A stretch of DNA of 63,595 nucleotides, filler included, from Chrysochromulina tobinii (GCA_001275005.1; 5 parts of 5 records of this genome joined end to end with filler, not necessarily neighbours in it); one strand, 5' to 3'; counted from the first letter of the whole stretch, positions 1,342-58,070 are shown. A program made the numbers and translations. Notes: generated by a model not told the origin, from the letters alone.

Positions 1342-2109
1342 ATGTCCCTCCACGCAGGGGCTACAATGGAGATTGCGGGGTTCCGAGGTCGCCTGGACTT
1401 GAATGGATCAGCTGTGAAACTAGTAACCTGGCTGCCATGCATGCGCTGGGCAGCCCTCGTCATCCATACGAATCCTCCGGAATCGATCACCGTTAAGCCG
1501 GAGAACCTGGTCGCAATCGGCAGCCAGGACTGTGCAGTCTATGAGTCTCTGCGACGTCGAAGAAATAATTGGGAGCACGAGTTTCAAAGGCATGTGGAGC
1601 AGCGATACGCCGAGCAGAAGCGAATAGATGACAAGGAGAGGCGACAGCGAAGGGCCGATCTGCAGCGAAGTGATGAGGAGGAGAGGCGAAGAGATGAGGA
1701 GACGAGGCGCCAAGAGAGAATCCATCAAGTAAGAGAGGTGGCAGCCAGAGCTAAATCGACCAATCGCACAACTGATCTCACTCACGACGCTCTTGTGGTG
1801 GTGTGCCAATTCCTTAATCTGAGTCAGTTAGACCCGTTGCGTTTCGTGTGCAAAGCTTGGAGCGCTGCCGCTCGCGCTGCTGCACGTGATCCAACCTGGC
1901 AGCTGACCATGCTTTCTGCCAACGAGTTGAAGCGCTATAGCAATGCTCTGCCCGTCTCTCTCGCCATGCGGCAGCGCTGGGTGCATGTGAATCTACGAAA
2001 AGCCCGCCATACTCATACAGCGCAGGAAGCCAAGGCGGCGGGTTTGACGATGGGGCAGATGATTGCTGCTGGGTACTCTCCGCGTGCGTGCTTCGATGCA
2101 GGCTTCTAG
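1342..2109 (+). CDS. F-box-like protein with N-terminal G.xGRLDLNG...VKPENL module, charged coiled coil and C-terminal AxEAKAAG/AAGYS repeats
   Basis: ATG at 1342 within ORF 1291..2109. TDLTHDALVVVCQFLNLSQLDPLRFVCKAWSAAA fits the F-box consensus (LP.ELL..IF..L....L.....VCK.W). Confidence 0.55.
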   Translation: MSLHAGATMEIAGFRGRLDLNGSAVKLVTWLPCMRWAALVIHTNPPESITVKPENLVAIGSQDCAVYESLRRRRNNWEHEFQRHVEQRYAEQKRIDDKERRQRRADLQRSDEEERRRDEETRRQERIHQVREVAARAKSTNRTTDLTHDALVVVCQFLNLSQLDPLRFVCKAWSAAARAAARDPTWQLTMLSANELKRYSNALPVSLAMRQRWVHVNLRKARHTHTAQEAKAAGLTMGQMIAAGYSPRACFDAGF

Positions 2110-2671
2110 CTTGAAGAGCAAGCCCGTGCACGGGGCAGGGCACCTCCGACTCATGCAGCGCAGGAGCCAAGGCAGCGGGATTCACAAGGATACGAATCGT
2201 TATTGAGAGCTGCTACTGGGCGCGCGTTGGTCCGCGCGAGGTCGGTGTTCGAACGGCTCGCGCGGGAGGCTATACGCTCCTGAGTCTTGTGGCTGGTGCA
2301 CGACGATGCCGAAAGGTTGCTCAGGGTCGGGTCACTGCCGTGCCGACTCACAGCTGCCCTGCGATGAGCGTACTCAGACTGTCCGCGTTGATTCGGTTTG
2401 TCCCGACTGCCCGGGTCTGTGCCCGCGTTAATGCGGCTCGTTGCTGCCGTGTCGTGTGGCTGCGCCGCGGCGCGTGGCTGCGGAGCGCCACGCACCGGAC
2501 CGCACGAGCCTGCGTGGTCGTGTGTACGCGGCGCGGCCGGGGGCGCTATCCCGGGCGTGGCGGCGGCCGAACGGCGACGCCAACGGTCGTGTCTCGTCGG
2601 TGTCACGGTGATGTGTGTCGTGTGGTGCACATGTTTTTAACACATGTTTGTTCATCCCACACGCACAGACG

Positions 2672-22727: not shown

Positions 22728-22827
22728 NNNNNNNNNNNNNNNNNNNNNNNNNNNNNNNNNNNNNNNNNNNNTTAATTAATTAANNNNNNNNNNNNNNNNN
22801 NNNNNNNNNNNNNNNNNNNNNNNNNNN
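22728..22827. other. Artificial contig linker (N44-TTAATTAATTAA-N44)
   Basis: Exactly 100 nt with a six-frame stop cassette; the same structure occurs four times. Confidence 0.97.
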
Positions 22828-39396: not shown

Positions 39397-39496
39397 NNNN
39401 NNNNNNNNNNNNNNNNNNNNNNNNNNNNNNNNNNNNNNNNTTAATTAATTAANNNNNNNNNNNNNNNNNNNNNNNNNNNNNNNNNNNNNNNNNNNN
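39397..39496. other. Artificial contig linker
   Basis: N44-TTAATTAATTAA-N44. Confidence 0.97.
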
Positions 39497-41825: not shown

Positions 41826-42939
41826 ATGATGATGAAGGTCCGCGCCGATGGCACGACGCTCGCGTCCGAGTTCTCATGCCTCATCCTGGACAACGCCTCC
41901 ATAAGGACGAGGACTTTATCCTCAAGATGAAGACACACATCCACGTCATGTTCATCCCGCCGTATTGCTATCACCTCTCACCCCTCGACTTTGGTGCTTA
42001 TGGCTTAGTCGAAAGTCGAGCGCTTCCTGAGGAAGATGGGCGAGGACTTTGGGGAGCACAACTGACGAACAGGCGAAATGGTGTTTCCATAATTGCCGGT
42101 ATTTGTTCTGATTAATTGTTAACGTAAGGTTCTACACTCAAGCGTTGTGATACGGCGGCAGAGGTGGAGGCGGCGGCGGTGACGTGCAAGGCGAGTCGCG
42201 GGAGACGGGTCACGGCACACGGGAGGGTGCGGCAAGGCGGCGGGCGGAAGCCTGCGGCGCACACGCAGCCGGCCGGAATCGGTGCGAGGAAGCCTGCGGC
42301 GCAAAGCGGCGCACACGCATCCGATGACGGCGAGGGGATTATGGCGGGGCGGCGGTGGAGACGGACGGCGGCGGCGAACCTGTGTCAGCACCGACGCACC
42401 GATGGCGCACGCCCCTCGGGGAACGCAAAGGTGTGCGCTCAGCACCGTCGCTTGACGACGGTGTCGAGCGACAGGTCATGAGCAAAGGAGCAGAAAGTCA
42501 GGCAAGCGGAGTTGAGAGGCGCACCTGGAATGCGGACGTGTTGAATGTGCCCTTAGTCATTCGCCAGTCCTCAAAGCCTCTCGACGAGAAGAGCGTCAAG
42601 GCGGAGATTCGCCCACCGCGCGTGAGATGCCAGTCACGCACGTAAGGGGTGATGCCACGAAAGCCCCAGCCGATGTTGGGCCTCAAGTTACGACGATCCT
42701 TGGCCGTCTCGTCCAGCACGAGAAGCTGGTCAGCCGTGTAGTAGGTCATAAGCTCCATCCAGAAGTCGCGGGCCTTGTCCTCATCACGCTTGCGAGCGAA
42801 GTGCTGCACCTGCAAACATGACGATGTGTGGCAACCGTCAGAGGCTGCAGTGTGATGAGGACAAGGCCCGCGACTTCTGGATGGAGCTTATGACCTACTA
42901 CACGGCTGACCAGCTTCTCGTGCTGGACGAGACGGCCAA
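41826..42939. mobile_element. Rearranged IS630/Tc1-mariner-like transposase remnants
   Basis: Minus strand ~42525-42808: ARKRDE..R.FW...DQLLVLDETAKD...GWGFRG...RGGRISAL...GTFN. Plus strand 41826-42012: CLILDNAS (frameshift) HKD...VMFIPPYCYHLSPLD. Plus 42852-42939 is an inverted copy of 42700-42787. Confidence 0.8.
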
Positions 42940-43039
42940 NNNNNNNNNNNNNNNNNNNNNNNNNNNNNNNNNNNNNNNNNNNNTTAATTAATTAANNNNN
43001 NNNNNNNNNNNNNNNNNNNNNNNNNNNNNNNNNNNNNNN
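42940..43039. other. Artificial contig linker
   Basis: N44-TTAATTAATTAA-N44. Confidence 0.97.
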
Positions 43040-46000
43040 AAGCTACGGAGTTGCTCACTGGCTATCTGGACTCGCAGGCCTCCTGCGAGCACGGCGAGGA
43101 GGGTCTGCTCATCAATGTGCACCCCACGACGACCGCTAGGCTGTTTCGCGAGTCCCTCGTGAAACGCGCTCCCAGCCATCCAAGCAGTCGCTTCCGCCAC
43201 GCAAACAAGGAGCAAGAGTGGACACACGTGAAGACGGTCCACTCGATCCACTCGACGATGCTCAAGGCCGCGCTCACCCACGAGCACACGATGGTTGTCG
43301 AGGCCAACTGCGTGTCGGTCGACATGTCCACCCCACTCTTCGACGGTCGGTACACCAGGGCACGGTCGAACTGCGAATACACCATTGAAAGCACGCAAAG
43401 CTTAGGAGAATTCGGCATGACGCGCGTCTTCCTGGCGATCGTCACCATGCGCTTACCGGGCGGCTTGAATGCGGGCGCGTGCGATGGCGTGACGGACAAG
43501 CTCAAGCCCGTCAACGCGACGATCTTCATGAGCACCGAGCGCGTGGGCGTCATCGAGCTACCGGTCCTCGATGAGGACGGCTCGATGAGCGTCTCCATCG
43601 GACGGTACGTGATCGACCCGCATGGCCTGCAAGATACTATCGAGTGGGATGAGGACAAACGACTCATTTGGTCCAAGTTAGGCCAGGCGTACGAGAAGAC
43701 AAGCAGCATTGAGGACGCGGAGGTCGGGATTCTGAAACGGAACGCGGATGCGTGGTTGCACTGGAATTGGGGACTCGATCGCATCGACACATGGCAGATC
43801 GACCTTAACAACGAGTACCGCTTCGGCTACGCGACAGGTGAAGGCACCACGCTGTTCAACCTGGACACAGGTGTCGCCGTCTATCACGACGACTTCGGCC
43901 GTGCGCTCGGCCGTGCGCGCGGCGGCTACTCGGCTGGCTGTGCGGATGGGACGGAGCTCACCTGCCTGGACAAATGGATTTACCCGGGCACCGTAGACGA
44001 CGGTGTGATGGCGCGCAACAGGACGACGTTCAAGGGCTGCTCCGAGCACGGCACGCACACCTCGTCGACCGCTGTGGGCACGAAGTACGGTGTCTCTAGC
44101 GGCGCCAAGCTCGTCGCGGTGCAGGTGCTCAGTTGCGACGGCGTCGGGTCGGATGCGACGATCCTCGCCGGCCTCGACTGGTCCATCAACCACGCTCTTA
44201 CGCAGAGGCCGTGGCGCCCTTCCGTTGCGTCCCTCTCTCTGGGAGGCCCACGTGGTCAATCGATCGCGTACAACGACGCGGTGAAGAGCATCTCAGCGAT
44301 AAGCATGCTCATCGTCGTGGCGGCGGGCAACGACGCTGGTGACTCGTGCGCCGAGTCACCGGCCGACATCGCGGAGGCCATGACGGTGGGTGCGAGCACC
44401 CTGATTCAGCCCGATGTAGAGGACGGCAAGTTGCTGCAGCTCGCATCAGGCGAGGCACCGCCTCTCTATGACGTCCAAGCAGAGTACAGCGACATGGGCT
44501 CATGCGTCGACCTCTTTGCCCCAAGCTCGCAGATTCTCACCGCCGTCCCTACGTACGGCTCGACGCACATTGCGGGCATCCTCTCGGGCACGTCGATGGC
44601 GACGCCCTTCGTTGCGGGCATCGCACTGCAAATCCTCGGGTTCGTCCCAAGTTTTCATGCTGACAACGTGACGCGCGCTCTCCACACGCTGCTGATTACC
44701 TTCCTCATCTCGGGCATCTGGTACGAGCGTGCCGCCGCCGTCGCCGCCGCGTTCAAGACGATTACCGAGCAGTACGAATTCTTTGCGAATCTTGACTTTG
44801 TGGTAGGCGTGTCGACGCTGCTCGTGCAATTACTGTGTTTCTCGCACAAGTACTCACTGTGCTGGCTTGGCTTCCACTGCACGCTCGTGGCCGAGCCGAT
44901 CGCAATGGCCGTTGGGCTGTGCATCGCTAACGTGCATCCAGGGCTGCTCTCGATCGCCCTCCTATATGGGTTCCGCAAGATCATGCACTACTCCAAGCCG
45001 GCCAAGGAGGGGCTGTACGCGTCGCTGCCCAAGGAAGTCGTCTTCATCACCAAGCCGCTGCTCCAAACGCTCGTCTATCGCGCCGGCTCGCTTGTGGGTG
45101 TGGCCTACTTCACCGCCGCCATCCAGTGGGGACTTAGCCCCAAGGTTCGTCAGTACATGCTTCTTGGGGTCGCCGTTGGTTGGGCGGCCAATTGCTTTTG
45201 GCTGGGCATCCTCGCCGAGCGCCACCAGCAGGCGCAGGACGAGCAGTTGCGGGACAGTCACGGCTGCGCTTCCCGGCTTGCCCCCTCCCGCCGCTCGATG
45301 AAAGTGTATCCGGCGCTCTGCATACTTGGAGGTCTCGTTGTCGTCAGCGGCAATTCTGGTGATGGTTTTGTCTCTGCTGCGCGTTCAAACGGTTCTCCAA
45401 GCCAATCATGTATCCGCATTGGTTTCCTTGGCCGGGCAGATATCGTCAAGCCGGCACTATTTACGCCCGCTGCGCGCCGCCCGGGCATGGTGGCCATTGT
45501 TGGGCTTGCGGCGCGGTCTGTGCAGGATGCAATCGCCTTCAAGCAGCAGCACTTGGAATACCTTTCAAATGCAACTGTGTACTCCAGTTACAGCGCGCTC
45601 CTTACGAGCCCGGACGTTGATGGTGTGTACATTGCATTGCCGACCAGCTTACACTTTGAGTGGGCGGCGCTTGCTCTCGCGGCCGGTAAGCACGTTCTTC
45701 TTGAGAAGCCACTTACTTCGAATGCTGTACAGGCTGAAGCACTGGTAGCACTTGCACGGCAGCGCAATCTTGTGCTCATGCACGGCTTGCACAACCTGCA
45801 CCATCCAATGATAGCGCGCGTGCGTGCGCTCGTACGCGGGCTAGGCAAACTACGCCACGCAGAAGCAAAACTGATCATGCCGAAGAAGTGGATTCAGAGG
45901 AAGGGGTCGCGCTATGACTCAGCTCTCTCGGGAGGCAGCGCCATGGACCTTGCTGGCTACGTGCTGAGCACGCTCCTAGAAATTCTGTATGACGATAGTC

Positions 46001-48486
46001 ACGAGAAAAGCTGCGACGTTCGCAGCACTGTCGCAACTCGTTGGCCAAAGGATCCCCTGATCGACGAGGGTATGGAAGGGGACATTCTCATTGGCGGCTT
46101 ATCGGTGCGCTTCGCCTGGTCTCTGATTGGTGAGAAGACTCCTGAAACAAAAGAGCTGCGTGTGGTGGGCTCCAACGGCACTTTGGTTGTATTCGGCTTC
46201 CAGGCACCTCAGTTCGGCAATTCGATCACTCTGCACGCGCATGACGGAACAGTGGTGCATCGCCAGTCCTTTGACAAGGCTATTACTACTTATGGCAACC
46301 AGGTGTCACATTTTACAGCCGCGGTGACACGCATTCGCAGTGGAGCAGTTTCCGACGCGGCATCCTTTGTGAACACGGGCGCTGCCTCGGTGCGTCTGAT
46401 GCGGTGCATCGACGCTGTCTACACGAGTGCGGGTATGCAACCAAGAGCCGGGCTGATTGAGCGGCCGCCACCAAGGGCATGCGCTAGCATAGCACGCGGA
46501 GCACCCGTGCACACTACTGCTGCATGTGATCAAGCCGAAGCTAGCCTACTTGGATCTGCCGGCAACGAGGGTGCAAAGAGTGGGATCAATTTCACCACTG
46601 CACTCACGGTGCGTACGCCTGTGTCCACCGACGGTGGTGCGCAGCTGCGCGCCATTTTGTACACAAGTGGTGCGGCATTAGTCAAACATGCTTTGTCAGC
46701 CGCGCAGCTCCAGCGCATCTTTGCGGCGATCGAAAAGCAAGGTCGGTGGCGCCTGCCGCCACTTGATAAAAGGAACGGGGTTGAAAATCAGCCTCGCCGC
46801 CTGAAAGCAGTGCTGAGCTCGTCGACAGGCTCATCGTCGCTCTCACCCCCGGAGCTTCTGTCAAGCGTGTTTGAGCCTATCTACGCACTGGCAGAGGCGG
46901 CCCTGTCTGGTGCGGTTGATAGTGGAGCAATACTCAAGCTGGCACGCCGACGCTTGCACAGGGATGAAGACACTACTTCCGACTCAATACTGGAGGAGGT
47001 CCACCTTAACTCGGCGCTCTCTGATAGCAAGCACCAAAATCCGCACTATGACCAAGCCTATAATGATCCTCATCTGCTTCTGACGATAGATATCCCGTTA
47101 GTTGAAGTCACTGATGAACTTGGTCCGCTTGAAGTGTGGCCAGGTACCCAAGGCATCCCCCTCGAGCAGCTCTTCAGTAGATCAACAATCAAGGCGCTGC
47201 GTTCTGCGGGTGGCGGCTCTCTGCAGTACAGAGCATGCTGGTGCGAGGTGAATCACGTGTTGGGTCGGAACTTTCCAAGCGTCCGGCTCCTCTCTGGCAT
47301 TGGGGACGCAGTAGTGCGCTTTCCTTCCACGTGGCACCGTGGCACACCGAATCGTCACCCTTCCCAGGTACGTGATATGGTGACCTTTGTATGGCGCCTC
47401 GCAAGACCAGCTGCTGTACCCGTTTGGTTGAAGTTACGGAAAGAGACTCCGCCAAGCTTGCCGCATGGACGCAACTTGAAGCTTGCCGCATGGCCGCATG
47501 GACCAAGCTTGCCGCATGGACGCAACTTGAAGCTTGCCGCATGGCCGCATGGACCAAGCTTGCCGCATGGAAGCGTAACAAGCCGCCCAAGCCCTCAGCT
47601 TGTGGCCGGCTGGCGCGTAACTGAAGCGGAATGGTCGGCAGCACAGGAGAAAGTAGCCCACATTTTAAGAGACGTGCCGCTGAAGCATCGCGAGCGTTGC
47701 GAACGGGTGCTGCGGAATCTGCCGGATGCTGGTTTTGCGCAAGCATGGCAGGATCACTTCCTCTATCGTAATTTCTTCGCAGGGATGGTGGCCGAGTCAC
47801 AAAAGGGCTTATATATCGACATCGGCACAAATGATGCAATCAAAATATCGAACACTGCTTTCTTTGACGTATGTCTTGGCTGGACAGGCGTGTGCTTTGA
47901 GCCGCAGGCAATTTACCACGAGCGTATCCGCTCGGAGCGCAGTTGTCACTTGGTGCCTTCCTGCGTGATGGGCAGACCAACGAAAATGATTGCGACCGGC
48001 TCTGGTGGTCTTTTGACTCTGAGACCAAGCACTGTGGTGAAGGGTGGAGGCAGCGAGATTCAATGCGTCGGCTTGCGTGAATCTCTTGTCAAGTTGAAGC
48101 TAGAAATGCGCCGAGTCGACCTGATCAGCATTGACATTGAGGGCAACGAACCTAGCGTACTCAAGTGCTTACCATGGGGGAAACTCGATGTCCGAGCTGT
48201 TCTCATCGAGACCAACAAGTATCGTGACCTACGGCCGGTGGACATGTTTTTCTCTGCTCACGGCTACGTCAACGCAAAGACGTTCCTGTACAAAGCATAT
48301 AAAGATCTTTCTGGCTCTTGGTTAGACAACTTGTACGTGAAGATGCCAGGCGGAGCTCCCCTTGTTCAGCCTCCTGGTAAGCCTAGGTGCGACCGAGCAG
48401 ATTTAGCGTTCAACCCTGATTGCGATCAGTGGCGTGAATGGGCACGGCCAGATATATCAGATGGGTGGGGTGCATGCGACTCGTGA
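43040..48486 (+). CDS. Uninterrupted >1800-codon ORF: subtilisin S8 peptidase + nucleotide-translocase (TLC/MFS)-like fragment + Gfo/Idh/MocA oxidoreductase + PhyH dioxygenase + FkbM methyltransferase (5'-truncated; may be two units split at ATG 45298)
   Basis: S8: WGLDRID, LDTG, HGTH, VAAGN, SGTSMATP. TLC-like: KPAKEGLY...KP....VYRAG. Gfo: DGVYIALPTSLHFEW...GKHVLLEKP. PhyH: QNPHYD, GPLEVWPGT, WHRGTPN. FkbM: YIDIGTND...SNT.FFD..LGW.G..FEP, ISIDIEGNE. Confidence 0.75.
47452..47571 (+). repeat. 51-nt in-frame tandem repeat (PSLPHGRNLKLAAWPHG), about 2.3 copies
   Basis: Units start at 47452, 47503 and 47554, in the PhyH-FkbM linker. Confidence 0.85.
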
Positions 48487-48589
48487 TTATTGCAGATGGG
48501 TGGGATGCATGCTACTTGTGATTCTTGCAGATGGGTGGGGTGCATGCGACTCGTGATTATTGCAGATGGGTGGGGTGCATGCGACTCGT
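48459..48589 (+). repeat. ~35-nt tandem repeat copying the last codons and stop of the upstream ORF (about 4 copies)
   Basis: CAGATGGGTGGGGTGCATGCGACTCGTGATTATTG repeated with variants. Confidence 0.85.
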
Positions 48590-49473
48590 GCTCATGCTCG
48601 TGCTTGTGTGTCTGAGACATAGGGTGGGGTAGGGTAAACGACTATCCCCACCACCTGATTTTGAACTCAATGATAACCCAAGGGGTAGGGGGAGGTATTC
48701 TTTCTGGATTCTACCATGGGATTCACACACTCGATCCCCACCTCACCTGATTTTGCAAAATTTTGAACTCAGCCGTCAGCGCGCTTCGCACTTCCCCTCC
48801 GGAAAAGGCTAATAGCCTAAGGCTTACCGAAAAGGGGGGTTCGAGGGTTGGCGGGGGGGTAAGGTGTAGTCAGATGAACCCCGAGCCGTATTGGCCGTTA
48901 TACGCTTGTGGGCCGGTGGCGCGTAGGGGGGGATCAACGGACCACCCTGTCCCTGACCCTCTGCCAAGGCCCAAGGGGGGAGTTCGCTAGGCCCGCCCGA
49001 AGGTGGCCCGCCTCGTTAGGTTATAGGTACGGTCCGGTGAGACAAAAGAAAACTTTTCTACAGTGGACAGTCGAGGCAGGCAGGAGCGGTGCAGGCCCCC
49101 GTGGGGGCATCCCTTCCGGGGCAAGGCAACCTCCCCGACCGAGCTTGCCTCCCACACAGCAACTTCTCCGGAGCCATGCGCATTTCGACATACACCGCAC
49201 ACCCGCGCGGACCTCGACGCGCCGCTCAGACCACACACCATGCCACACACCCTGCCACGCGCGGCGACTCCGATGGTGGACAATCTAGAATCTTCAATCA
49301 CACCGTTCTTGGTGGTCCTCATGCAGACCTCTTTCGAGGAGGCGCGTCGTTTACGTTTGGACACGCAAGTGGACAAATGCACCTGTTATAGTGTAACGGC
49401 CGAAGCGCAGCCGTCCGACCTTCGCCCGGTCAGCCCGTCAGGTGTGAATTCGGCCCAGCTGTGAATCGCCTGG

Positions 49474-50766
49474 TCAGCCCGTCAGGGCCGATTTGTGCCA
49501 GAAGGCCATGGGATCAATGGTGTGGAAAGGGGGAGAGCCTCGCTGGTGAGAAGACCACATGGGGGAAGTGATATTCATGTTGCGGCGGTACGTCAGGATG
49601 GCTGCGCGCGACTGCAAGAACTTCCAATCATCGAAGACGATGTAACCACCGACTGTGAGAGGCGTGAGAGGCGGGTATACATGTAGAGGGCGCGTCACCC
49701 ATTTCAGGAGGTAGGGTTGTTAGTTAGGGTGAGCACAGGGTGGGCATTAGGGTGAGCATGCACCCACCTGAGAGGCGAGGGTAGAGGGCGTCAAGCGTCT
49801 CATAGATCGACACGAACATATCCGAGTCCGCGCGGATGAGTGCGAACGAGCTGCCCGGTGGTATCGTGTGGAGCGTCTCGTTGAAGAAGCCAGGCAGGAA
49901 CCTGACCTGACGAAGCACGTCACCCTCTGCGCCCTTCTCCTCGAAGCCTCCGTGCACTTTCCCGCCCTCTGGCGTACCTGCGGAAGGAGAGGGGCGCGCG
50001 CCGTGGTGGGCACTTGCATGCACGGCCCTTTTGTGTTGCTCTTCCCACAGCTCTCTGTCGTACCCATGGCTGGGAACGGCTGGTGAGTTGGGCTGCTGAG
50101 GCACGTCGACATGCGCTTCTTCACAGCGTCGAGGGGGCTGGCAAACTTGCCAGGTGTCCAATCGCGTGCCCCCGCGTACTCAAACTTGGCGGCTCGGGCG
50201 ATGCTCTCCATGTTGGTGCCTGCCCTGTTACCGCCGTCGCGCTCTGCGAACTGTCGGATGTATGCTTTCGAGGGCGGCAGGCCTCCGAAACTATCAGCGA
50301 GCCACATCTGACGAACCCGCTCGCGTGGTGCGTGGGCCGTGGCGCCCCGAAGCGTGTAGAATGCATGCAGCAGGGCCTCCATGTGCACCGAAATACCGCC
50401 CTTGTAGACCCCAGCTTCGATGAAGTCGCCTGCGATGCCGTTGTGCAGCACGTCCCAAGCAAGAGGCTCCAGCATCGTGGCACGGCGCCAGCAGTCCCAC
50501 TGGCATGCGGCTTCAGGGTCGCCTCTGTTGCTGGTCGGGAACGCTTTCGCACGGCCTATGACGCACGCCTTCGACGCATTGAGGAAGGCAAGCTGCTCTT
50601 CCGTCCACTGCTGCTGCTGGGCAAGGCGAGAAAGCTCTGAAACCTCCTCTGCGGACTGGCTCGCCAGCGGGTCATACATTGGAAGATGCGCCTTGATGCG
50701 TTGGTCAGGCGTGACTGACTTGCACACCAGGATAACTGCATGCATGTGCAGCACGTGCAGCCGCAT
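49474..50766 (-). CDS. TylF/MycF (macrocin O-methyltransferase) family protein; 3 exons
   Basis: GIAGDFIEAGVYKGG, WLADSFGGLP, VRFLPGFFNETL, ALIRADSDMFVS and LYPRLS|VGGYIVFDDW. Exons 50766-50064, 49977-49768 and 49652-49474 total 364 codons. Confidence 0.9.
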
Positions 50767-51623
50767 CGTGCTGGGTTGATCTGCCCAGCCTAGCGGTCCG
50801 GCGCTACAAACCGCTTCTTCCAAGACCACACACAGAAATTCCTATCGACTGATTCCTATCCGTTATTTTCGCTTTTCACGTGCGATGCATGCGAGGGCGT
50901 GATTTCCGCCAACAGACAGGATCCTCCTGCGAAAGATGGCGAAACATGGCGACGCTGCAAATACGAAACCGGTCACCACCGCGCACACCGCGCGACATCC
51001 GATTGAGACGAGACGGAGAGGCGGGAAGGCGGGGCGTAGCCGGTACGCATGCCGGTTCGGCAATGACGTGAGACCATTTGATTAAATTTGAGCATGTGAC
51101 GCATGCGTGGTCGACACATCGGCCTTCGGCTTGGCCGTATCGCGTATGGGCATTGCCCAATTATCCCCTCGCCCTGGCCTCGCCATTCCCGATTCAGCAT
51201 TCACGCATCACGGGGTCGACGTCTCGAGTGTCGAGATTTCGTTAATATCAAATATGGTTTTTTCACACAAGTCTTTGCAGATTGCACACTCATGCGTTGC
51301 ATCATGCATGCCGTACGCCAGGCTGGGCGGGGGGATACATCTCGTCACTCTCCAAATCGCTAATCGCATGGCGGGCTCATTATAAACGCAAGACGCGGCT
51401 CTGGACGCTGCCTTGCTGTCAGCTGTCTGAATCAATCAATCATTTGGTTTTGGGCTACTGCCGCATTCTGCCGCCCCGCGTGCGCAGTTCTCGCTCACAA
51501 CGTGCCGGCTGGTAGCAATGGCTCCGGTGCCTCACGGCGAGCGCTCGTGTCGAGCGGTGACTGACGGCATGAGCATGCGTGTACCTCTCCCGTGCATGAA
51601 ATCGAGCAACGGCTCGCACCAGT

Positions 51624-51779
51624 TTAGGATGGTTAGAGCAGCTCGAGCTCGCGATCTCCCCATTAGGATGGTTAGAGCAGCTCGAGCTCGCGATCTCCCC
51701 ATTAGGATGGTTAGAGCAGCTCGAGCTCGCGATCTCCCCATTAGGATGGTTAGAGCAGCTCGAGCTCGCGATCTCCCCA
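51624..51779. repeat. 39-nt exact tandem repeat x4 spanning the DGAT-like gene stop codon
   Basis: TTAGGATGGTTAGAGCAGCTCGAGCTCGCGATCTCCCCA at 51624, 51663, 51702 and 51741. Confidence 0.93.
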
Positions 51780-53495
51780 ACCAAATGCGACCTTTTGGGA
51801 GTCAAACGTGGCCACCATCTCGTCGCACAGCTTTGCATGCAGCGCGTCAATCTCGGCGTCGCTCGGGCATTTGCACGCCTCGCCTACCTCGATCGGCCGG
51901 CCGAGGACCACGGTGATCGCCGCCCGGCGCGGCACGGGAGGCAGCCCGGGGCCAAACCGCCCATACGGGAGAATGAGCGAGATTTTGAGCGTGCGCGAGA
52001 TCCATTCGCCAGCCGTGCCGAGCAGGTTGCGCAGGGGGCGTCGGGACACGAAGAACCAGCAGGGCACCAGCGGGACGCCGTGCGCCTTGGCCAGCTTCGT
52101 CAATCCCTTGCGCTTCCGAATGATGACGGCGGGAGAGGCATGGGATCGCGCCGCGTCCGTGAAGATGCCTGCAATGCCGTCGATGGCCACTCCGGTCGGG
52201 TACCTGATGCGGGATGCAATCAGAGGTCATCAGCATGCAATCAGCATGCAATGCCGTCGATGGCCACTCCGGTCGGGTACCTGATGCGGGATGCAATCAG
52301 AGGTCATCAGAGGCCACCAGAGGCCATCAAAGGTTATCCGAGGTTATTCAGAGGTTATTCAGAGGTCATCAGGGGCCATCAGAGGTTATCAGGGGCCATC
52401 AGAGGTCATCAGCGCACCCATTCGAGAGCAGTGTCGAGAGGACGTCGCGATCGGCAGGCACACACCCAATGCCATAGAAGATCTGGGAGGCGAGATTGGG
52501 GCGAGATTGGGGGGATTGGTGAGTCACCACAGACGCGGGACTGACGAAGCGCGATCGGCTAGACTTCTATATTAGGGACGGCGAGTCACCTGGCGCCAGA
52601 TTGGGAGGCGAGTCACTACCGACGCGACGCCCGCCCGCCCATGGCAGCGCGAGGTCAAGTAGGGCGAGAGCTGCCACAGGAGCCCGCCGATCGGGAAGAG
52701 CGAATGCGGTGCGCACACGTGGATGTACCTGAGGGACGGAGGCGGCGCCGTGCTGAGCACTTGCATGCCAGGCAGGTCATCAGTGGCAATCCACACACAG
52801 CTGAACGGCGCTGTGCTGAGCACTTGCATGCCAGGCAGGTCATCAGTGGCAATCCACACGTACGGTCGATCGGCGACGAACTTGTTCTCCGGGGCGAAGA
52901 CGACCCGGAACGAGAAGTAGCGGTACATCGCGCGCAGCACGAAGTTGTGCTTCAGGCCGGCGCGGGGGGCGGGCGCCCAGATCGTGAGCGCCGCGACGAG
53001 CGCCAGCGCCAGCGAGGGGAAGTAGACCCACCCGACCACGGCCCAGGAAAGCAGGGCGAGGAACACCGCGACCGGTGCAAAGGCCGGCCCTGAAAAGAAG
53101 AGGGCAAGGGCCACAATGCACACGAGCTCCTCCCACCAACCCATCGGTGCCTCGGTGGCCAGCGCGCCTGGCTCGAAGGCTCCGTCGGCGGCTTTGCGCG
53201 CGATCCCGGCCACCAGCGCGGCGTGGCTCTCCTCAGAGATGGCGGGATCACCAACTTCGGCCGGAAGTCGCCACATCTCCAGCACGGAGCACTCGGACGG
53301 GAGCCGAGCGATGAAGTCATCTGGACGTTTCCAAGTATTGCGAACGCGAAGCCCATCGGCGGAGAAGTTGGACAGGGAATTGTAGGAAGCGTCCCTCGAC
53401 AGAGGACTCGTTGGTGGGGTCTGCAGATCGCGCAGCTCGTCGGAAGTGGTCGGAGTCGTTTCGACGTTCAGCGTGTTGCGCCCGCCGCTGCCCAT
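51750..53495 (-). CDS. Diacylglycerol/monoacylglycerol acyltransferase (DGAT2/MGAT family); 4 exons
   Basis: RYFSFRVV, YIHVCAPHSLFPIG, ASVVTRLPIWRQ, DGIAGIF, RKGLTKLAKAHGVPLVP, VVLGRPI and IDALHAK. Exons 53495-52864, 52728-52590, 52482-52418 and 52203-51750 total 430 codons. Confidence 0.88.
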
Positions 53496-53972
53496 TTCGT
53501 TGTGAGTGCTCCCCGCTAAAAAGGCAGCGCCGCTGCAGACGACTGGCGTCGGTGTTCGCAAAGATCCAGCATCCGGACGACCAGGAGGGAATCGGCCGGA
53601 CGCTTCGGAGAATCTCTGCTCGAGTTCGCGAGCAAACTCAGAACAACCGAGAACAACCGATAAACTTGGTCGCGAAGGAGGTAAGTGCGGTCATCAAACT
53701 TCTCACAAAGGCAGCCTGGTTTGAGCGCGACATCCCAAGATCAACGTGCCAAGATCAACGATCCGGTCGACAAACTACTTCTTAATAACATACGTTCTGG
53801 CCGCGAGGTTCTTTGTGCCGTGTGTGTCCCGTGTGTGTCCCGGCTCCCCCCGGTGTCTTTGAACCGGCACGGAGATTGGTCTCTTTGGAACGTCCCCGAA
53901 ATTTTGTTTGCTTGAACTCATCACACTTCCAACCAGTCGCTTCCAACGCGTCTCAAAATTCGTGGACCTGAA

Positions 53973-56900
53973 ATGTCGGACGACCTTGCTTTGCCGTCCG
54001 CCCGCGCGCTGGCAACGTCGCTGCTCTCGGCGGCCTTCGCGGCCGAGGGCGGCCCGCCGAGCCAGCTCTCCGAGGAGGACTTTCTTGCGGCCGAGGCCTC
54101 GGTCATCGAATGCCCGCCGTCCCCGCTCGAGTGCTGCCTTCGCGTGCACCGCCGGTGCGTCTTCGACGCGGTCAACGAGGCGCTCGACGAGCTCTCTCAG
54201 CCGCCGCCAACGCCGCGCGGGCTGTCGCTCGCCACACGCTCCGCCAACGGCGCGAAGCCCGCCTCCCGGTCGAGCAGCATCGCCTCGCTCCTGGCGGCCG
54301 CACACGAGCAGCGCATCTCGACGCTCGACTGCGAGGCGTGGACGCAGCGCGTGCTCGCGTTGATGCCCGAGCCGTCGGCGCCGCCGGTGGGGCTCGCGGT
54401 GGTACCGGACGACATCGGCGCCACCACACGGCGCGTGTGGAAGCAGCTCCTGCCCGAGTGGAGCGACTTTGGCGAGGACGAGATGGCTCTCGCCCGCTCT
54501 GAGGTTCGCTCGGATGAGAGTGCTTGATGACCTCTGATGGCCTCTGATGACCTCTGATGACGAGATGGCGCTCGCCCGCTCTGAGATTCGCTCGGATGAG
54601 AGTGCTTGATGACCTCTGATGACCTCTGATGACGTATGATTGCCTCCCTCATCAGGTGCGCTCGGCTGAGAGTGCGGCGGAGCTGCGCGAGCTGCGCGCG
54701 AAGCGCGCGGCGGAGTTGTTTTGGGAGGGGCGCGAGGCGCTCTTGCTCTCCGACGACGAGCTGCATGGCGTGCTCTGGGATGCGCTGTGTCAGTACGTGT
54801 CCCCTCCGTGGCCGGCCGAGGGGCTTGGCGACTCGGATAGCGACCCCCACGGCGAGGTGGGACGCAAGCTGCCGAAGCCGAAGCCGAAGCCGAAGAAGAA
54901 GAAGAAGAAGGAGGAGGAGGACGACGAGGGGCAGGGCGAGGAGGAGGGCGAGGAGGAGGAGGAGGAGGAGGAGCCCGAGGAGGAGGAGGTCGTCGGGGCG
55001 CGCGATCGGCATGCGCGCATCCATTACGAAGACTACCTGCTGGTATGCTGATGGCCCTGATGGCATCTTCAGTCAAGACCTGCCTGATGACGTGCCTGAT
55101 GACGTGCCTGATGACGTGCCTGATGACGTGCCTGATGGCGTCTGAGGACATGCCTGGTGACCTCCCTGATCGCCTCTCATCGCGTGCGCTCCTCTCGCCT
55201 CTCTGCTGCAGGCGCTGAGTGAGCTCGATCGTCGCAAGGTGGCACCACTGCGATCGGCGCGCCTCTTCCTCTCCCTGCGACTAGACGCGTATGGTCGCGC
55301 ATCCATCCGGTCGCTCTACGCGCTCGCGTGCTCGCTCACGCAGCTACTGACGACCCGCATTCAGCTCGCGATGCTCGAGGATGGGCACGGCCGCCTGTCG
55401 GAGCAGGTATGCCCTTTCGCTCTAGATGGACACTTGATGGACACTTGATGGACTCTTGATGGACTCTTGATGGACTCTTGATGGACTCTTGATGGACTCT
55501 TGATGGACTCTTGATGGACTCTTGATGGACTCTTGATGGACTCTTGATGGACTCTTGATGGACTCTTGATGGACTCTTGATGGACTCTTGATGGACTCTT
55601 GATGGACTCTTGATGGACTCTTGATGGACTCTTGATGGACTCTTGATGGACTCTTGATGGACTCTGCCGGCACATAATCACATTCACACTCGGTCTCTGC
55701 TCACTCGTGCCCTTTTCACACTTGCCATTTTAGGCGCTCGAGACGTTCGTCTCCGAGTCGATCCCGAGGCTCGCCCGGCTGCGTGACCACGTGCACCTGC
55801 AGCAAGGCCACTCCTTTCTGCCCTTCTACGTCGCCCATTGCGTGCGCAAGTTCTGCCTGCTGCTCGAGCCGAAGGACAAGCGTGGGGTCCCTTCCGAGAC
55901 ACTTCTGATCTCGGCGGAGCTCGCCCAGCTATGCGCGCTCGGCGAGGAGTTGCCCGATACGGCAGCTGGCCTGCGGCGCGACAGCCACTCCAGCGAGGAC
56001 ACGCCGCCCCCGAGCAGCTTGGGTGATACGCCGCCCCCGATTTGGTTCTCCCTCCCGTGCCGCCGTGGGTGTGCCGCCGCATGCATGTGCTCACCACGAC
56101 GCCCTCGCCTCCCCACAGGTGATGAGTCGAATTGGTTCTCCCTGGCCTCGGCCATCCGCGTGTACCGCCACTTCCTCGAGCTCGACACGGACCACGACGG
56201 GATGCTCACGCCGGACGAGCTCGCTTCGTATGGCGATGGACTGCTCTCGCTCACACCGGCCTTTGTGAGTAGTGGCCCCTGATCGCGCCCCTGATCGCGC
56301 CCCTGATCTCGCCCCTTTTGAGTGTGGCACTGCCCCTGATGGCCCCTGATGGCCCTTCTCATCAGGTCCCTGATTGTCCCTCTCATCAGGTCCCTGATTG
56401 TCCCTCTCATCAATTCCCCGATTGTCCCTCTCATCAGGTCCCTGATTGTCCCTCTCATCAATTCCCCGATTGTCCCTCTCATCAGGTCGGTCGCCTCTTC
56501 GAAGCCGTCCACACATACGACGGCAAGCTCGACTACAAGGGGTACCTCGACTTCGTCATCGCGCATGAGCACCGCTCCCACCCGGCGGCGCTCGCCTACT
56601 TTTTCCGCTCGCTCGACTTGCATGCGTCGGGCAAGCTCGGCGTCTTCGAGGTCAACTACTTCGTGCGCGACATTGTGCAGGGCCTGATCGACTCGGGAGA
56701 CGAGCCGCCCGGCCTTGGCACGATCGTGGATGAGGTCTTCGATCTCGTCAAGGGGAGATCGCACAAGTCGCGGGGCGCGGGCGCGCTCGAGCGCGGGCGC
56801 GTCGTCTCGGGCGCGATGCCAACGCTCTCGCTCACGGAGTTTGTGCGCTGCGGCGCGGGCTCGATCGTGATGCAGATGCTGATCGACGTGCAGGGGTTCT

Positions 56901-57970: not shown

Positions 57971-58070
57971 NNNNNNNNNNNNNNNNNNNNNNNNNNNNNN
58001 NNNNNNNNNNNNNNTTAATTAATTAANNNNNNNNNNNNNNNNNNNNNNNNNNNNNNNNNNNNNNNNNNNN
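57971..58070. other. Artificial contig linker
   Basis: N44-TTAATTAATTAA-N44, preceded by a poly-C run. Confidence 0.97.

What the first reader, a model, noticed from the sequence alone, without database searches (positions are those of the whole stretch)
43040..48486. Intronless 1811-codon ORF joining a protease, a transporter fragment and three small-molecule/glycan-modifying enzymes
One open frame carries an S8 peptidase with an intact D/H/S triad (~43760-44690) and the C-terminal half of a TLC-like nucleotide translocase (~44690-45250). It then has Gfo/Idh/MocA (~45410-46460), PhyH (~46640-47400) and FkbM (~47730-48345) domains. I know of no such architecture. An internal ATG at 45298 starts a signal-anchor-like MKVYPALCILGGLVVVSG, and the sequence looks less GC-rich downstream. 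The likeliest reading is a Gfo-PhyH-FkbM secretory-pathway gene fused in frame to captured upstream fragments. A self-processing polyprotein is the speculative alternative. The Gfo-PhyH-FkbM trifusion alone suggests an oxidise/hydroxylate/methylate assembly line.
Basis: partly seen in the sequence, partly recalled or inferred. Interest (0 to 1): 0.72.

Follow-up and report, generated by a model that had tools for sequence, protein, structure and literature searches.

The report
Chimeric protease–transporter–three-enzyme reading frame
The long open frame is real DNA of the haptophyte Chrysochromulina tobinii, but it is a patchwork: a recent partial copy of a protease gene and the back half of a transporter gene sit in frame ahead of an intact, conserved three-enzyme gene that likely tailors sugars in the secretory pathway.

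Summary
The frame is real and longer than reported. The window is five contigs joined by N spacers, and 43040 is a contig's first base. Longer contigs with identical sequence give an ATG 121 nt upstream and 1855 codons.

It has three parts:
- **Protease piece.** The first ~587 codons are 97% identical to an intact C. tobinii S8 protease paralog. They break off about 24 residues before the end of the catalytic domain.
- **Transporter piece.** About 193 codons equal the last part of an ATP:ADP-antiporter-like MFS transporter, 78% identical to an intact 456-aa C. tobinii protein.
- **Three-enzyme gene.** From ATG 45298 there is a complete signal-peptide–Gfo/Idh/MocA–PhyH–FkbM gene.

Third-position GC falls from 0.80 to 0.57 at the second junction. 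Both junctions are bridged by exact contigs in three other DNA runs.

A second genomic copy shares only 45172–48630. RNA contigs from three runs match that copy, without introns. The three-enzyme unit also stands alone at 54% identity in another organism, and Gfo–PhyH two-domain relatives exist.

No RNA shows the five-domain protein, and its predicted membrane topology is inconsistent. The find is of moderate interest.

The parts
43040..43764 (+). N-terminal pre/pro region of the S8 protease piece. It is cut by the contig start; the real ATG and a signal-peptide-like MRSFYWLLLLQPANGA lie 121 nt upstream in identical longer contigs.
   Evidence: contig boundary. (L001 3622 ATG). GC3 0.80-0.83 in this frame. 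100% identical at protein level to the paralog P0170 here.
43765..44679 (+). S8 (proteinase K/aqualysin-type) catalytic domain. The triad is intact (Asp 43864, His 44047, Ser 44593), but the last ~24 residues of the fold are missing.
   Evidence: Pfam PF00082 E 2.7e-24. The alignment to aqualysin ends at residue 248 of 276, whereas the intact paralog P0170 aligns to 272. Coordinates.
44677..44682 (.). Junction 1, protease piece to transporter piece (…VTRAL|HTLL…).
   Evidence: The S8 paralog's DNA contig matches up to 44678 and then reads …A LLCLAVDDAL, as P0170 does. The transporter parent reads LRAITLHTLL. An exact 740-nt contig bridges 44577-45316 in DNA runs X1, X2 and X7.
44680..45255 (+). 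3' part (about six membrane helices) of an ATP:ADP-antiporter-like MFS transporter paralog. The first ~250 residues of the transporter are absent.
   Evidence: 78% identical to P0193 residues 251-443 of 456. 61% identical to P0004 residues 246-433. Hydropathy peaks. GC3 0.80.
45256..45297 (+). Junction 2: 14 codons between the end of transporter homology and the internal ATG. The GC3 change-point interval 45256-45328 starts here.
   Evidence: homology ends at …LRDS; the parent goes on 13 residues to its stop. (change point).
45172..48630 (+). Segment shared with the second genomic copy ('copy B': L004-L006, P0002). It is the only part of the frame seen in RNA contigs, and those are of copy B.
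   Evidence: blastn limits. (RNA and DNA contigs diverge at 45172 with the same loose end). (same indels in genomic copy B and in the RNA).
45298..48486 (+). Three-enzyme gene, 1062 codons plus stop, intronless.
- Signal-peptide-like start at 45298-45351.
- Gfo/Idh/MocA oxidoreductase, about 45400-46460 (Lys 45706, Asp 45946, Tyr 45958).
- PhyH-type Fe(II)/2-oxoglutarate dioxygenase, about 46660-47360 (His 47044, Asp 47050, His 47335, Arg 47353).
- FkbM methyltransferase, about 47815-48270, followed by a Cys-rich tail.
   Evidence: Pfam. KijD10 alignment. KanJ fold match. Relatives P0002 (92%) and P0003 (54%) are colinear over the whole length. Relatives begin with signal-peptide-like stretches directly before the Rossmann fold.
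47452..47571 (+). In-frame 51-nt tandem duplication (2.4 copies) in the linker between the dioxygenase and the methyltransferase. Copy B and the RNA have one unit fewer.
48458..48590 (+). 35-nt tandem repeat (3.8 copies) that includes the last codons and the stop codon.
49747..50841 (-). Neighbouring open frame with a TylF (macrocin O-methyltransferase family) match, tail to tail with the three-enzyme gene.
   Evidence: Pfam PF05711 E 3.8e-11.

Best explanation
The frame is a chimeric locus of Chrysochromulina tobinii in which three pieces of different origin are joined in frame at the DNA level, and only the last piece, a signal-peptide-bearing Gfo/Idh/MocA-PhyH-FkbM enzyme, is likely the working unit.

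Shown:
- Piece 1 is a recent partial duplicate of a secreted S8 protease gene. It is 97% identical to an intact paralog and is cut ~24 residues before the end of the catalytic domain.
- Piece 2 is the last ~193 codons of an older paralog of an ATP:ADP-antiporter-like MFS transporter, 78% identical to an intact gene.
- Piece 3 is complete and intronless, and has a codon composition of its own.
- Piece 3 also exists as a second genomic copy that is transcribed, and as a stand-alone 1080-aa protein in another organism.

Inferred:
- The pieces were joined by duplication and non-homologous joining. The transporter-to-enzyme join came first, because both copies share it. The protease join came recently.
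- The three-enzyme protein would enter the secretory pathway. There it would act on a sugar or glycoside in up to three steps: NAD(P)-dependent keto-reduction or oxidation (KijD10-like), Fe(II)/2-oxoglutarate-dependent oxidation (KanJ-like) and S-adenosylmethionine-dependent methylation (FkbM).
- If the 1855-aa chimera is translated at all, it is predicted to be topologically inconsistent and not a designed five-domain enzyme.
For: DNA reality.
- The window is identical to L001-L003 over the frame (0 differences). These come from contigs of 39-123 kb.
- L007, from another assembly, is 99.7% identical over 8,223 nt.
- Exact 740-nt contigs bridge 44577-45316 in 3 of 3 DNA runs laid there (X1, X2, X7).

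Piece 1.
- P0170 (726 aa, named extracellular serine proteinase of C. tobinii) is 550/566 identical up to …VTRAL. It then continues LCLAVDDALRTVDPHTPNRL, which aligns to the end of aqualysin (residue 272 of 276). The chimera aligns only to residue 248.
- A DNA contig of that paralog leaves the window at 44678.

Piece 2. P0193 residues 251-443 of 456 match at 78% identity.

Piece 3.
- P0002 is 92% identical and P0003 54% identical, both colinear over the whole three-enzyme part.
- Copy-B loci L004-L006 are homologous only over 45172-48630.
- RNA contigs of 3 of 3 RNA runs laid (X12 polyA, X13, X14) are colinear with 45172-48509. They carry copy B's indels and show no splice.
- GC3 goes from 0.80 to 0.57, with the change point at 45256-45328 and a log-likelihood ratio of 54.

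Function.
- The KijD10 sugar 3-ketoreductase is the best solved match (E 2.4e-26), with the EKP Lys and the D…Y pair kept.
- The model of the middle domain (pLDDT 77.9) matches KanJ best (E ~1e-12). The H-x-D…H…R motif is kept in 7 of 9 two-domain relatives.
- FkbM scores above the Pfam cut-off.
- Relatives start with signal-peptide-like stretches.
- Methyltransferase frames flank both copies.
Against: - The frame stays open over 1855 codons from a signal-peptide ATG, and both joins are in frame. A young expressed chimeric gene is therefore not excluded. This argument is weakened because the finding was picked for being a long frame.
- Copy A lacks the upstream sequence from which copy B's RNA starts. 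If copy A's enzyme part is expressed at all, it may be only as the chimera.
- The transporter piece is 22% diverged from its nearest intact relative. It still has no stop or frameshift and keeps GC3 at 0.80. This suggests a long period under selection, possibly as a true transporter-enzyme fusion.
- In copy B the first ATG in the RNA-covered 5' stretch is in frame and upstream of the transporter-derived helix. That helix is probably translated there.
- The substrate and the order of the three reactions rest on family resemblance only.
- The paper's passages call C. tobin naturally wall-less, so no obvious glycan target is known.
Confidence: 0.72

Rival explanations
1. Young expressed chimeric gene. 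The duplicated protease promoter and start codon drive one mRNA. An 1855-aa secreted-protease/membrane/three-enzyme protein is made, with or without any use to the cell.
For: There is an uninterrupted frame from an ATG with a signal-peptide-like start. The catalytic triad is intact. Both joins are in frame. Copy A has none of copy B's upstream sequence. The RNA runs are uninformative here, because they show no cover on 43040-44480 even though the 97-100% identical intact paralog would lay there too. The protease promoter therefore seems silent in them.
Against: No RNA contig carries either junction in the 3 RNA runs laid. This is only weak evidence. The protease fold lacks its last ~24 residues. 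The topology does not add up: a lumenal protease followed by about six helices, which would be inverted relative to their native orientation, and then the former signal peptide would put the Cys-rich enzyme part in the cytosol. This last point is an inference from the recalled standard 12-helix MFS topology and.
Confidence: 0.2
2. Remnant of a true transporter-enzyme fusion. The ancestor was a full 12-helix antiporter-like transporter with an extra helix and the three enzymes at its C-terminus. Copy A lost its front half to the protease duplicate, and copy B kept only the last helix.
For: Relatives of the same transporter carry C-terminal enzyme domains: P0004 and P0200 with an aldo/keto reductase, P0201 with FAD_binding_6. 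P0004 also has a hydrophobic stretch between transporter and enzyme. The transporter-enzyme join is shared by copies A and B and is open in both. The transporter piece has no stop or frameshift despite 22% divergence.
Against: There is a sharp GC3 step at the join. P0003 and the two-domain relatives have no transporter part and start with their own signal-peptide-like stretch. No full-length transporter-three-enzyme protein was found among proteins of 996-3170 aa. That search is word-limited, so the absence is weak.
Confidence: 0.15
3. Assembly or amplification artefact. The joins at 44679 and about 45256 do not exist in the organism's DNA.
For: The genome is a fragmented draft, and the window is made of joined contigs. 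The preceding contig ends in a 91-nt inverted repeat typical of artefacts. L007 shows a patch of copy-B variants inside copy A.
Against: The same joins occur in the window, in L001-L003, in L007 from another assembly, and in exact 740-nt contigs at depth ~37 in 3 DNA runs. Copy-specific differences lie on both sides of junction 1, so no shared 31-mer could have mis-joined the graph.
Confidence: 0.03
4. Evolved self-processing polyprotein. The protease releases the downstream enzymes.
For: The only support is the co-occurrence of an intact triad and downstream enzymes in one frame.
Against: The protease part is a near-identical recent copy of an ordinary secreted protease and is truncated. None of the relatives found combines S8 with these enzymes. 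The relatives work without it.
Confidence: 0.02

Closest known systems
Young chimeric genes formed by partial gene duplication and fusion (textbook examples such as jingwei in Drosophila; recalled, not searched here)
   Same: Pieces of existing genes, whose intact parents are still present in the genome, are joined in frame into a new open frame. One join is very recent, since the protease piece is 97% identical to its parent.
   Different: Expression of the chimera is not shown. One donor piece is a truncated catalytic domain and another is half a transporter, so a useful product is doubtful. No sign of retroposition could be tested, because the donor is intronless.
KijD10, dTDP-sugar C-3''-ketoreductase of Actinomadura kijaniata (PDB 3rbv)
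   Same: It is the best solved match of the first enzyme domain (E 2.4e-26). The Rossmann fold, the EKP lysine and the Asp…Tyr pair align.
   Different: KijD10 is a bacterial single-domain cytosolic enzyme. Here the domain follows a signal peptide and is fused to two further enzymes. The substrate is unknown.
KanJ, kanamycin B dioxygenase (PDB 6s0r, 7cl2), PhyH-type Fe(II)/2-oxoglutarate oxygenase
   Same: It is the best sequence match (E 4e-4) and fold match (E ~1e-12, TM 0.5-0.6) of the middle domain. The His-x-Asp…His…Arg set is present.
   Different: Identity is only 18%. Large inserts make the domain about 350 residues long. It is fused on both sides.
Gfo/Idh/MocA-PhyH two-domain proteins of unnamed environmental eukaryote-like sequences (P0023, P0025, P0027 and others)
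   Same: They have the same order of the first two domains, the same signal-peptide-like start and the same motifs, and match as one continuous stretch over profile positions ~34-712.
   Different: They lack the FkbM module, which occurs on its own in many ~300-aa proteins (P0010, P0012, loci L008-L014). None has a known function.
Transporter-enzyme fusions in the same transporter family (P0004, P0200: transporter + aldo/keto reductase; P0201: + FAD_binding_6)
   Same: An antiporter-like MFS transporter is followed in one frame by a hydrophobic stretch and an oxidoreductase.
   Different: Those proteins have the whole transporter. Here only its back half (copy A) or its last helix (copy B) remains.

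Membership tests
Peptidase S8 (subtilase, proteinase K/aqualysin type) | Asp-His-Ser catalytic triad in the conserved motifs | tested here: met
   D272 (LDTG), H333 (HGTH) and S515 (GTSMATP) align to aqualysin-1. Pfam E 2.7e-24.
Peptidase S8 (subtilase, proteinase K/aqualysin type) | Complete catalytic domain through its C-terminal segment | tested here: not met
   The alignment to aqualysin stops at residue 248 of 276. The intact paralog P0170 aligns to 272 with …LCLAVDDALRTVDPHTPNRL, which the chimera replaces with transporter sequence.
ATP:ADP antiporter-like (TLC/AAA) MFS transporter | Sequence membership | tested here: inconclusive
   The piece itself has no Pfam hit. It is 78% identical to P0193 (named MFS_1 by its source); P0193's near-identical 491-aa relative P0192 is named 'AAA family ATP:ADP antiporter' by its source. 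P0004 reaches PF03219 at 21.3 bits against a cut-off of 21. Distant bacterial relatives carry PF03219.
ATP:ADP antiporter-like (TLC/AAA) MFS transporter | Full set of about 12 membrane helices | tested here: not met
   Only residues equivalent to 251-443 of the 456-aa parent are present.
Gfo/Idh/MocA oxidoreductase | N-terminal Rossmann fold with the EKP motif, and a C-terminal domain with the Asp…Tyr/His pair | tested here: met
   PF01408 at 65.6-68.3 bits. PF22725 is weak at 15-19 bits. EKP (K886) and GGSAMDLAGY (D966, Y970) align to KijD10. The role of these residues is recalled from the family literature.
PhyH-type Fe(II)/2-oxoglutarate dioxygenase | Double-stranded beta-helix fold with the His-x-Asp…His iron triad and a 2-oxoglutarate-binding Arg | tested here: met
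   Pfam 19.4 bits (whole protein) and 24.5 bits (segment) against a cut-off of 22. The model has pLDDT 77.9 and its top fold matches are KanJ, AndA, SptF and AsqJ. H1332, D1334, H1429 and R1435 are conserved in 7 of 9 two-domain relatives. Metal binding itself is not testable here.
FkbM methyltransferase (Methyltransf_21) | Profile match above the curated cut-off | tested here: met
   28.6 bits (whole protein) and 32.7 bits (segment) against a cut-off of 22.7. P0002 scores 33.1 and P0003 28.1. SAM binding was not tested.
Viral or cellular self-processing polyprotein | Protease plus cargo conserved together, with defined cleavage sites | tested here: not met
   None of the relatives found joins S8 to the three enzymes. 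The protease part is a recent truncated duplicate. Cleavage sites are not testable here.

The most novel reading that the evidence does not exclude
The three-enzyme unit was born as the C-terminal, lumen-facing extension of a nucleotide-antiporter-like transporter. This transporter family repeatedly carries oxidoreductases on its tail in haptophytes, coupling import of a nucleotide-linked substrate to its tailoring. The locus in the window is this fusion caught while a duplicated protease gene takes over its front half, making an expressed new chimeric gene in a haploid alga.
Probability: 0.12. Interest if true: 0.65.

Novelty: new variant of a known kind. Interest (0 to 1): 0.4.

Why it matters
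- **Annotation.** The public gene model for this contig (639 aa, 'extracellular serine proteinase') joins the protease piece and the transporter piece. It ends in an out-of-frame scrap of the oxidoreductase domain. Among the 40 of 64 cluster members read, no named model covers the three-enzyme gene.
- **Enzymology.** The Gfo/Idh/MocA-PhyH-FkbM order is a rare architecture that is conserved across 46% sequence divergence. Only two protein clusters carrying it were found among 5.8 billion. It has two-domain relatives of unknown function. It is a candidate for sugar tailoring in an alga whose glycans and glycosylated metabolites are barely known.
- **Genome evolution.** The locus shows gene pieces being shuffled in frame in a small, gene-dense haptophyte genome, with the parent genes still present for comparison.
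- **Limits.** None of this overturns a current view. The five-domain enzyme that made the finding striking is most likely not a functional design.

Tried and rejected
- **Whole-genome search.** No genome is held for this window.
- **RNA cover of the protease and transporter pieces.** The three RNA runs laid show no contig on 43040-44480. On the transporter piece they show only short pieces from other paralogs. Such gaps are not evidence of silence, and the intact S8 paralog, which would lay on the same stretch, is equally absent.
- **Selection test within copy A.** The window and L001-L003 are identical over the frame. L007 differs only in a patch of copy-B variants at 45847-46083. There is no polymorphism to measure constraint on the upstream pieces. 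A rough count of 12 listed differences to the S8 paralog in 44368-44678 gave 6 at third codon positions and 6 at first or second positions, counted by hand. That is too few to decide.
- **Viral or bacterial origin of the low-GC3 three-enzyme gene.** Pattern scans of viral contigs (40 stretches, 0 confirmed) and genome contigs (84 stretches, 0 confirmed) found no relative. These scans use two short peptide patterns only, so the negative is weak.
- **ESM Atlas.** No usable hit.
- **Representatives search.** None of the 150 listed proteins matched all three domains. The three-enzyme cluster itself did not appear (top score 424 bits), so this library cannot be used to count the architecture.
- **Splicing as the cause of the break at 45172.** Rejected. 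DNA contigs of copy B carry the same upstream letters as the RNA, and there is no AG before 45172.
- **Earlier scan notes.** Nothing found.
- **Literature.** No paper holds FkbM + phytanoyl-CoA dioxygenase + Gfo Idh MocA together or either protein accession.

Full report
**1. What is in the sequence.**
The frame 43051..48486 (+) is open for 1811 codons and 1832 codons stop to stop. It is by far the longest frame in the window; the next is 943 codons.

The window is not one molecule. Four N44-TTAATTAATTAA-N44 spacers split it into five contigs. Base 43040, where the finding starts, is the first base of a 14,931-nt contig (43040-57970), so the frame is cut at its 5' end.

A scan of metagenome contigs with an alignment of the three-enzyme part returned three loci (L001-L003) from contigs of 39-123 kb. 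These are identical to each other over 15,186 nt. They are identical to the window over the frame, with 0 differences, and 99.2% identical over 43040-54406.

In these loci the frame runs 1864 codons stop to stop. It has an ATG 121 nt before the window's contig start, which gives 1855 aa beginning MRSFYWLLLLQPANGA, a signal-peptide-like start. A gene call of exactly this length, P0173, is on record.

**2. Domains.**
- Pfam on the whole frame gives S8 (E 2.7e-24), the Gfo/Idh/MocA N-domain (8.4e-18), FkbM (28.6 bits, cut-off 22.7) and PhyH (19.4 bits, below the cut-off of 22).
- On the isolated segments, PhyH reaches 24.5 bits and FkbM 32.7 bits.
It is 78% identical to residues 251-443 of P0193. 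P0193 is a 456-aa protein named 'major facilitator superfamily mfs_1 [Chrysochromulina tobinii]'. Its 491-aa relative P0192 is named 'AAA family ATP:ADP antiporter' by its source. More distant bacterial relatives carry PF03219 TLC.

**3. Organism and existing annotation.**
Cluster look-up lists P0162, 639 aa, 'extracellular serine proteinase [Chrysochromulina tobinii]'. It lies on a contig of 14,931 nt, the length of this window's contig.

P0162's sequence equals frame residues 70-698 and then ends LQRAPYEPGR. That tail is encoded out of frame inside the oxidoreductase domain at 45591. The public model is therefore an ab initio join that ends artificially. Among the 40 of 64 cluster members read, no named model covers the three-enzyme part.

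Passages read from the genome paper (PMC4580454) give these figures and statements:
- 59 Mb in 3,472 contigs, GC 63.4%;
- on average one intron per gene, and an average gene length of 1,899 bp;
- a naturally wall-less cell;
- several macrocin-O-methyltransferase homologues.

**4. Piece 1: a recent, truncated copy of a protease gene.**
P0170 (726 aa, same organism, same name) is 550/566 identical to the chimera from its Met to …VTRAL. There are no differences in the first ~400 residues.

P0170 then continues LCLAVDDALRTVDPHTPNRL…. This aligns to the C-terminal end of aqualysin-1 (to residue 272 of 276). The chimera aligns only to residue 248 and switches to HTLLITFLISGIWYERAAAV…, which is transporter sequence. 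The parent transporter reads LRAITLHTLLITFLVSGVWYERAAAV.

In DNA runs X1, X2 and X7, a 213-nt contig of the paralog (10 differences in 102 nt) follows the window to 44678. It then leaves with letters that translate to …A LLCLAVDDAL.

The triad D272/H333/S515 is intact, but the last ~24 residues of the fold are replaced.

**5. Piece 2: the back half of a transporter paralog.**
Homology to P0193 runs from the junction to …AERHQQAQDEQLRDS, at nt ~45255. P0193 ends 13 residues later.

The piece has a two-codon deletion, no stop and no frameshift. Its GC3 is 0.80 in this frame. Hydropathy shows several helix-like peaks.

Relatives of this transporter in other organisms carry C-terminal enzymes in one frame. 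P0004 and P0200 have an aldo/keto reductase, and P0201 has FAD_binding_6.

**6. Piece 3: the three-enzyme gene.**
From ATG 45298 the frame reads MKVYPALCILGGLVVVSG, then a Rossmann fold.

Searches of 5.8 billion protein clusters:
- With the whole frame, 6 proteins reached E<=0.001 among 7,985 scored candidates.
- With the three-enzyme part alone, 3 reached it among 7,997.
- Only two clusters cover all three enzymes. P0002 (1141 aa, 92% identical, 64 members) and P0003 (1080 aa, 54% identical, 5 members) are both colinear from the start of the oxidoreductase to the last residues.

An exhaustive profile search of 1.84 billion representatives gave 39,772 hits at E<=0.001, of which 150 were listed.
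- I scanned 15 long or multi-stretch hits with Pfam. None has all three domains.
- P0023, P0025 and P0027 match as one stretch over the oxidoreductase and dioxygenase parts.
- In an alignment, 7 of 9 such relatives keep QNPHxD and WHRGTPN.
- The methyltransferase module, with its N-terminal extension and Cys-rich tail, occurs alone in many ~300-aa proteins and in 7 of the 14 metagenome loci, at 41-52% identity.
- The three-enzyme cluster itself did not show up in the list, so that list cannot be used to count the architecture.

The two-domain relatives start with short hydrophobic stretches directly before the Rossmann fold. This supports 45298 as the native start and a secretory destination.

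**7. Likely chemistry (inferred).**
- The best solved match of the first domain is the sugar 3-ketoreductase KijD10 (E 2.4e-26). EKP and GGxxxDxxxY align.
- The middle domain's only solved sequence matches at E<=0.001 are three chains of kanamycin B dioxygenase KanJ (E 4e-4).
- An AlphaFold2 model from a 12-row alignment (pLDDT 77.9, pTM 0.82) has KanJ as its best fold match (E ~1e-12, TM 0.5-0.6). Next come other PhyH-type oxygenases: AndA, SptF and AsqJ.
- H1332, D1334, H1429 and R1435 form the expected iron and 2-oxoglutarate set.
- The third domain is FkbM.
- A TylF-family frame lies tail to tail with this copy. A Methyltransf_22/FkbM-like frame lies head to head with the other copy.

All of the nearest characterised relatives act on sugars or aminoglycosides. 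My best guess is stepwise tailoring of a sugar or glycoside in the secretory pathway. No substrate is shown.

**8. Two genomic copies, and RNA from one.**
Loci L004-L006 ('copy B') align to copy A only over window 45172-48630 (94-96% in the blastn rows; 96.1-98.2% by substitutions within the coding part). The sequence on both sides is different.

One assembly holds both copies on separate contigs, L004 and L007, whose names carry similar coverage (94.7 and 90.5). In runs X1, X2 and X7, copy-A-specific and copy-B-specific contigs have similar depth (37 against 31-46). With a haploid genome suggested, these are most simply paralogs.

RNA contigs of 3 of 3 RNA runs laid (X12 polyA, 4571 nt; X13, 3552 nt; X14, 3289 nt) are colinear with 45172-48509.
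- They carry about 96 differences per 2,280 nt.
- They carry indels at 45386, 46139, 47452, 48510 and 48616.
- Genomic copy-B loci L005 and L006 carry all five of these indels, and L004 four of them, lacking the 3-nt one at 46139.

The RNA is therefore copy B, unspliced.

The RNA leaves the window at 45172 with the letters …CCTCCTACTACAGTTT. DNA contigs of copy B show the same letters, and they are L006 4348-4377. The break is genomic, not a splice.

In L006 the first ATG inside the RNA-covered 5' stretch (4295) is in frame. It lies ahead of the transporter-derived helix and the former signal peptide. Copy B's product is therefore predicted to begin with three hydrophobic stretches.

**9. Composition.**
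- In the frame's own phase, GC3 is 0.78-0.83 for codons 1-749 and 0.55-0.59 afterwards.
- The best single change point is after codon 757. The support interval is codons 735-759 (nt 45256-45328) and the log-likelihood ratio is 54.
- This interval spans the end of transporter homology and the ATG.
- Other long frames of the window have GC3 of 0.60-0.82.
- Copy B shows the same step, 0.83 to 0.58.

The three-enzyme gene thus has a different compositional history from the two upstream pieces. Pattern scans found no viral or prokaryotic relative, so the source is open.

**10. Are the joins real?**
Exact 740-nt contigs (44577-45316, no differences, depth ~37) occur in 3 of 3 DNA runs laid on the junctions. 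The same sequence stands in the window, in L001-L003 and in L007. Copy-specific differences flank junction 1 on the protease side, so a graph mis-join through a shared word is excluded. An artefact is very unlikely.

**11. Is the 1855-aa protein real?**
This is not shown. No RNA contig carries a junction. The same runs also lack any cover from the near-identical intact protease gene, so they do not test transcription from that promoter.

Points against a working five-domain enzyme:
- the protease fold is truncated;
- only half a transporter is present;
- no relative with this order was found;
- the predicted topology is inconsistent (inference).

On topology: a lumenal protease followed by about six helices would invert those helices relative to their native orientation. 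With the former signal peptide as a seventh helix, the Cys-rich enzyme part would end up on the cytosolic side. In copy B and in all relatives, the start of the protein predicts a lumenal enzyme.

Points that keep it open:
- the intact frame and start codon;
- copy A lacks copy B's upstream sequence, so the chimera may be the only way this copy can be expressed.

**12. Order of events (inferred).**
1. The three-enzyme gene came to lie in frame behind a transporter paralog. This join is shared by copies A and B.
2. The segment 45172-48630 was duplicated next to a methyltransferase gene and is transcribed there (copy B).
3. Recently, a duplicate of the 5' ~587 codons of the protease gene replaced the front half of the transporter in copy A.

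Whether step 1 made a true transporter-enzyme fusion, as in P0004-like relatives, is the most interesting open point.

**13. Verdict.**
- The polyprotein idea is not supported.
- The conserved novelty is the Gfo/Idh/MocA-PhyH-FkbM architecture, which is rare, of unknown function, and has two-domain relatives.
- The five-domain frame is a chimeric locus, most likely an evolutionary accident and possibly a young gene.
- Literature searches found no paper holding the three family names together and none holding the two protein accessions.
- From a paper on Ostreococcus (PMC5082852, passages read) I take only a lead. There, lower-GC, rearrangement-prone chromosome regions collect glycan-building genes, including an FkbM methyltransferase and sugar transporters. 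Nothing here tests such a link.

Noticed in passing
window 22728-22827, 39397-39496, 42940-43039, 57971-58070: N44-TTAATTAATTAA-N44 spacers. The window is five separate contigs laid end to end, so features that touch these places are cut and neighbours across them are not linked.
   Followed up: yes
window 42700-42790 and 42849-42939: A 91-nt inverted repeat, 99% complementary with 58 nt between the arms, lies at the very end of the preceding contig. It looks like a fold-back assembly or amplification artefact.
   Followed up: partly
window 45144-45620: The public 639-aa gene model for this contig leaves the frame at …GLSPK. It ends with LQRAPYEPGR, which is encoded out of frame inside the oxidoreductase domain at 45591. 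This is an artificial last exon.
   Followed up: yes
window 47452-47571: A perfect 51-nt in-frame tandem duplication (PSLPHGRNLKLAAWPHG twice) lies in the linker before the methyltransferase. Copy B and the RNA contigs have one unit fewer.
   Followed up: yes
window 48458-48590: A 35-nt tandem repeat, 3.8 copies, repeats the last codons and the stop codon of the gene. Copy B has a 68-nt deletion here and a different, longer C-terminal tail in P0002.
   Followed up: partly
window 48641-49063: A high-copy repeat lies just past the end of the segment shared by the two copies. Summed contig depth is about 2,000-3,000 in DNA run X1, against about 40-100 nearby. It may have played a part in the rearrangement.
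   Followed up: no
window 49747-50841 (-): An open frame with a TylF (macrocin O-methyltransferase family) match, E 3.8e-11, lies tail to tail with the three-enzyme gene. The genome paper mentions several such homologues.
   Followed up: partly
L006 2972-4021 (-): A Methyltransf_22/FkbM-like frame lies head to head with copy B, with about 270 nt between the two starts. It is unrelated in sequence to the TylF frame beside copy A.
   Followed up: partly
L001 3372-3430: A degenerate short copy of the protease gene's first codons (…LLKPANGA…GYLDSQAS, ending in a stop) lies about 200 nt upstream of the real ATG. It lacks 29 codons that the real start has.
   Followed up: no
L007, equivalent to window 45847-46083: In another assembly of copy A, a 240-nt patch carries copy B's variants and nothing else differs. 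This is either an assembly mosaic or gene conversion between the copies.
   Followed up: partly
P0004, P0200, P0201 (proteins of other organisms): Full-length relatives of the transporter continue in one frame into an aldo/keto reductase or a FAD-binding domain. Transporter-enzyme fusions seem to recur in this family.
   Followed up: partly
L006 4201-4238 and window 53830-53867: A 38-nt stretch just upstream of copy B's start also occurs, 95% identical, further along copy A's contig. Its meaning is unknown.
   Followed up: no
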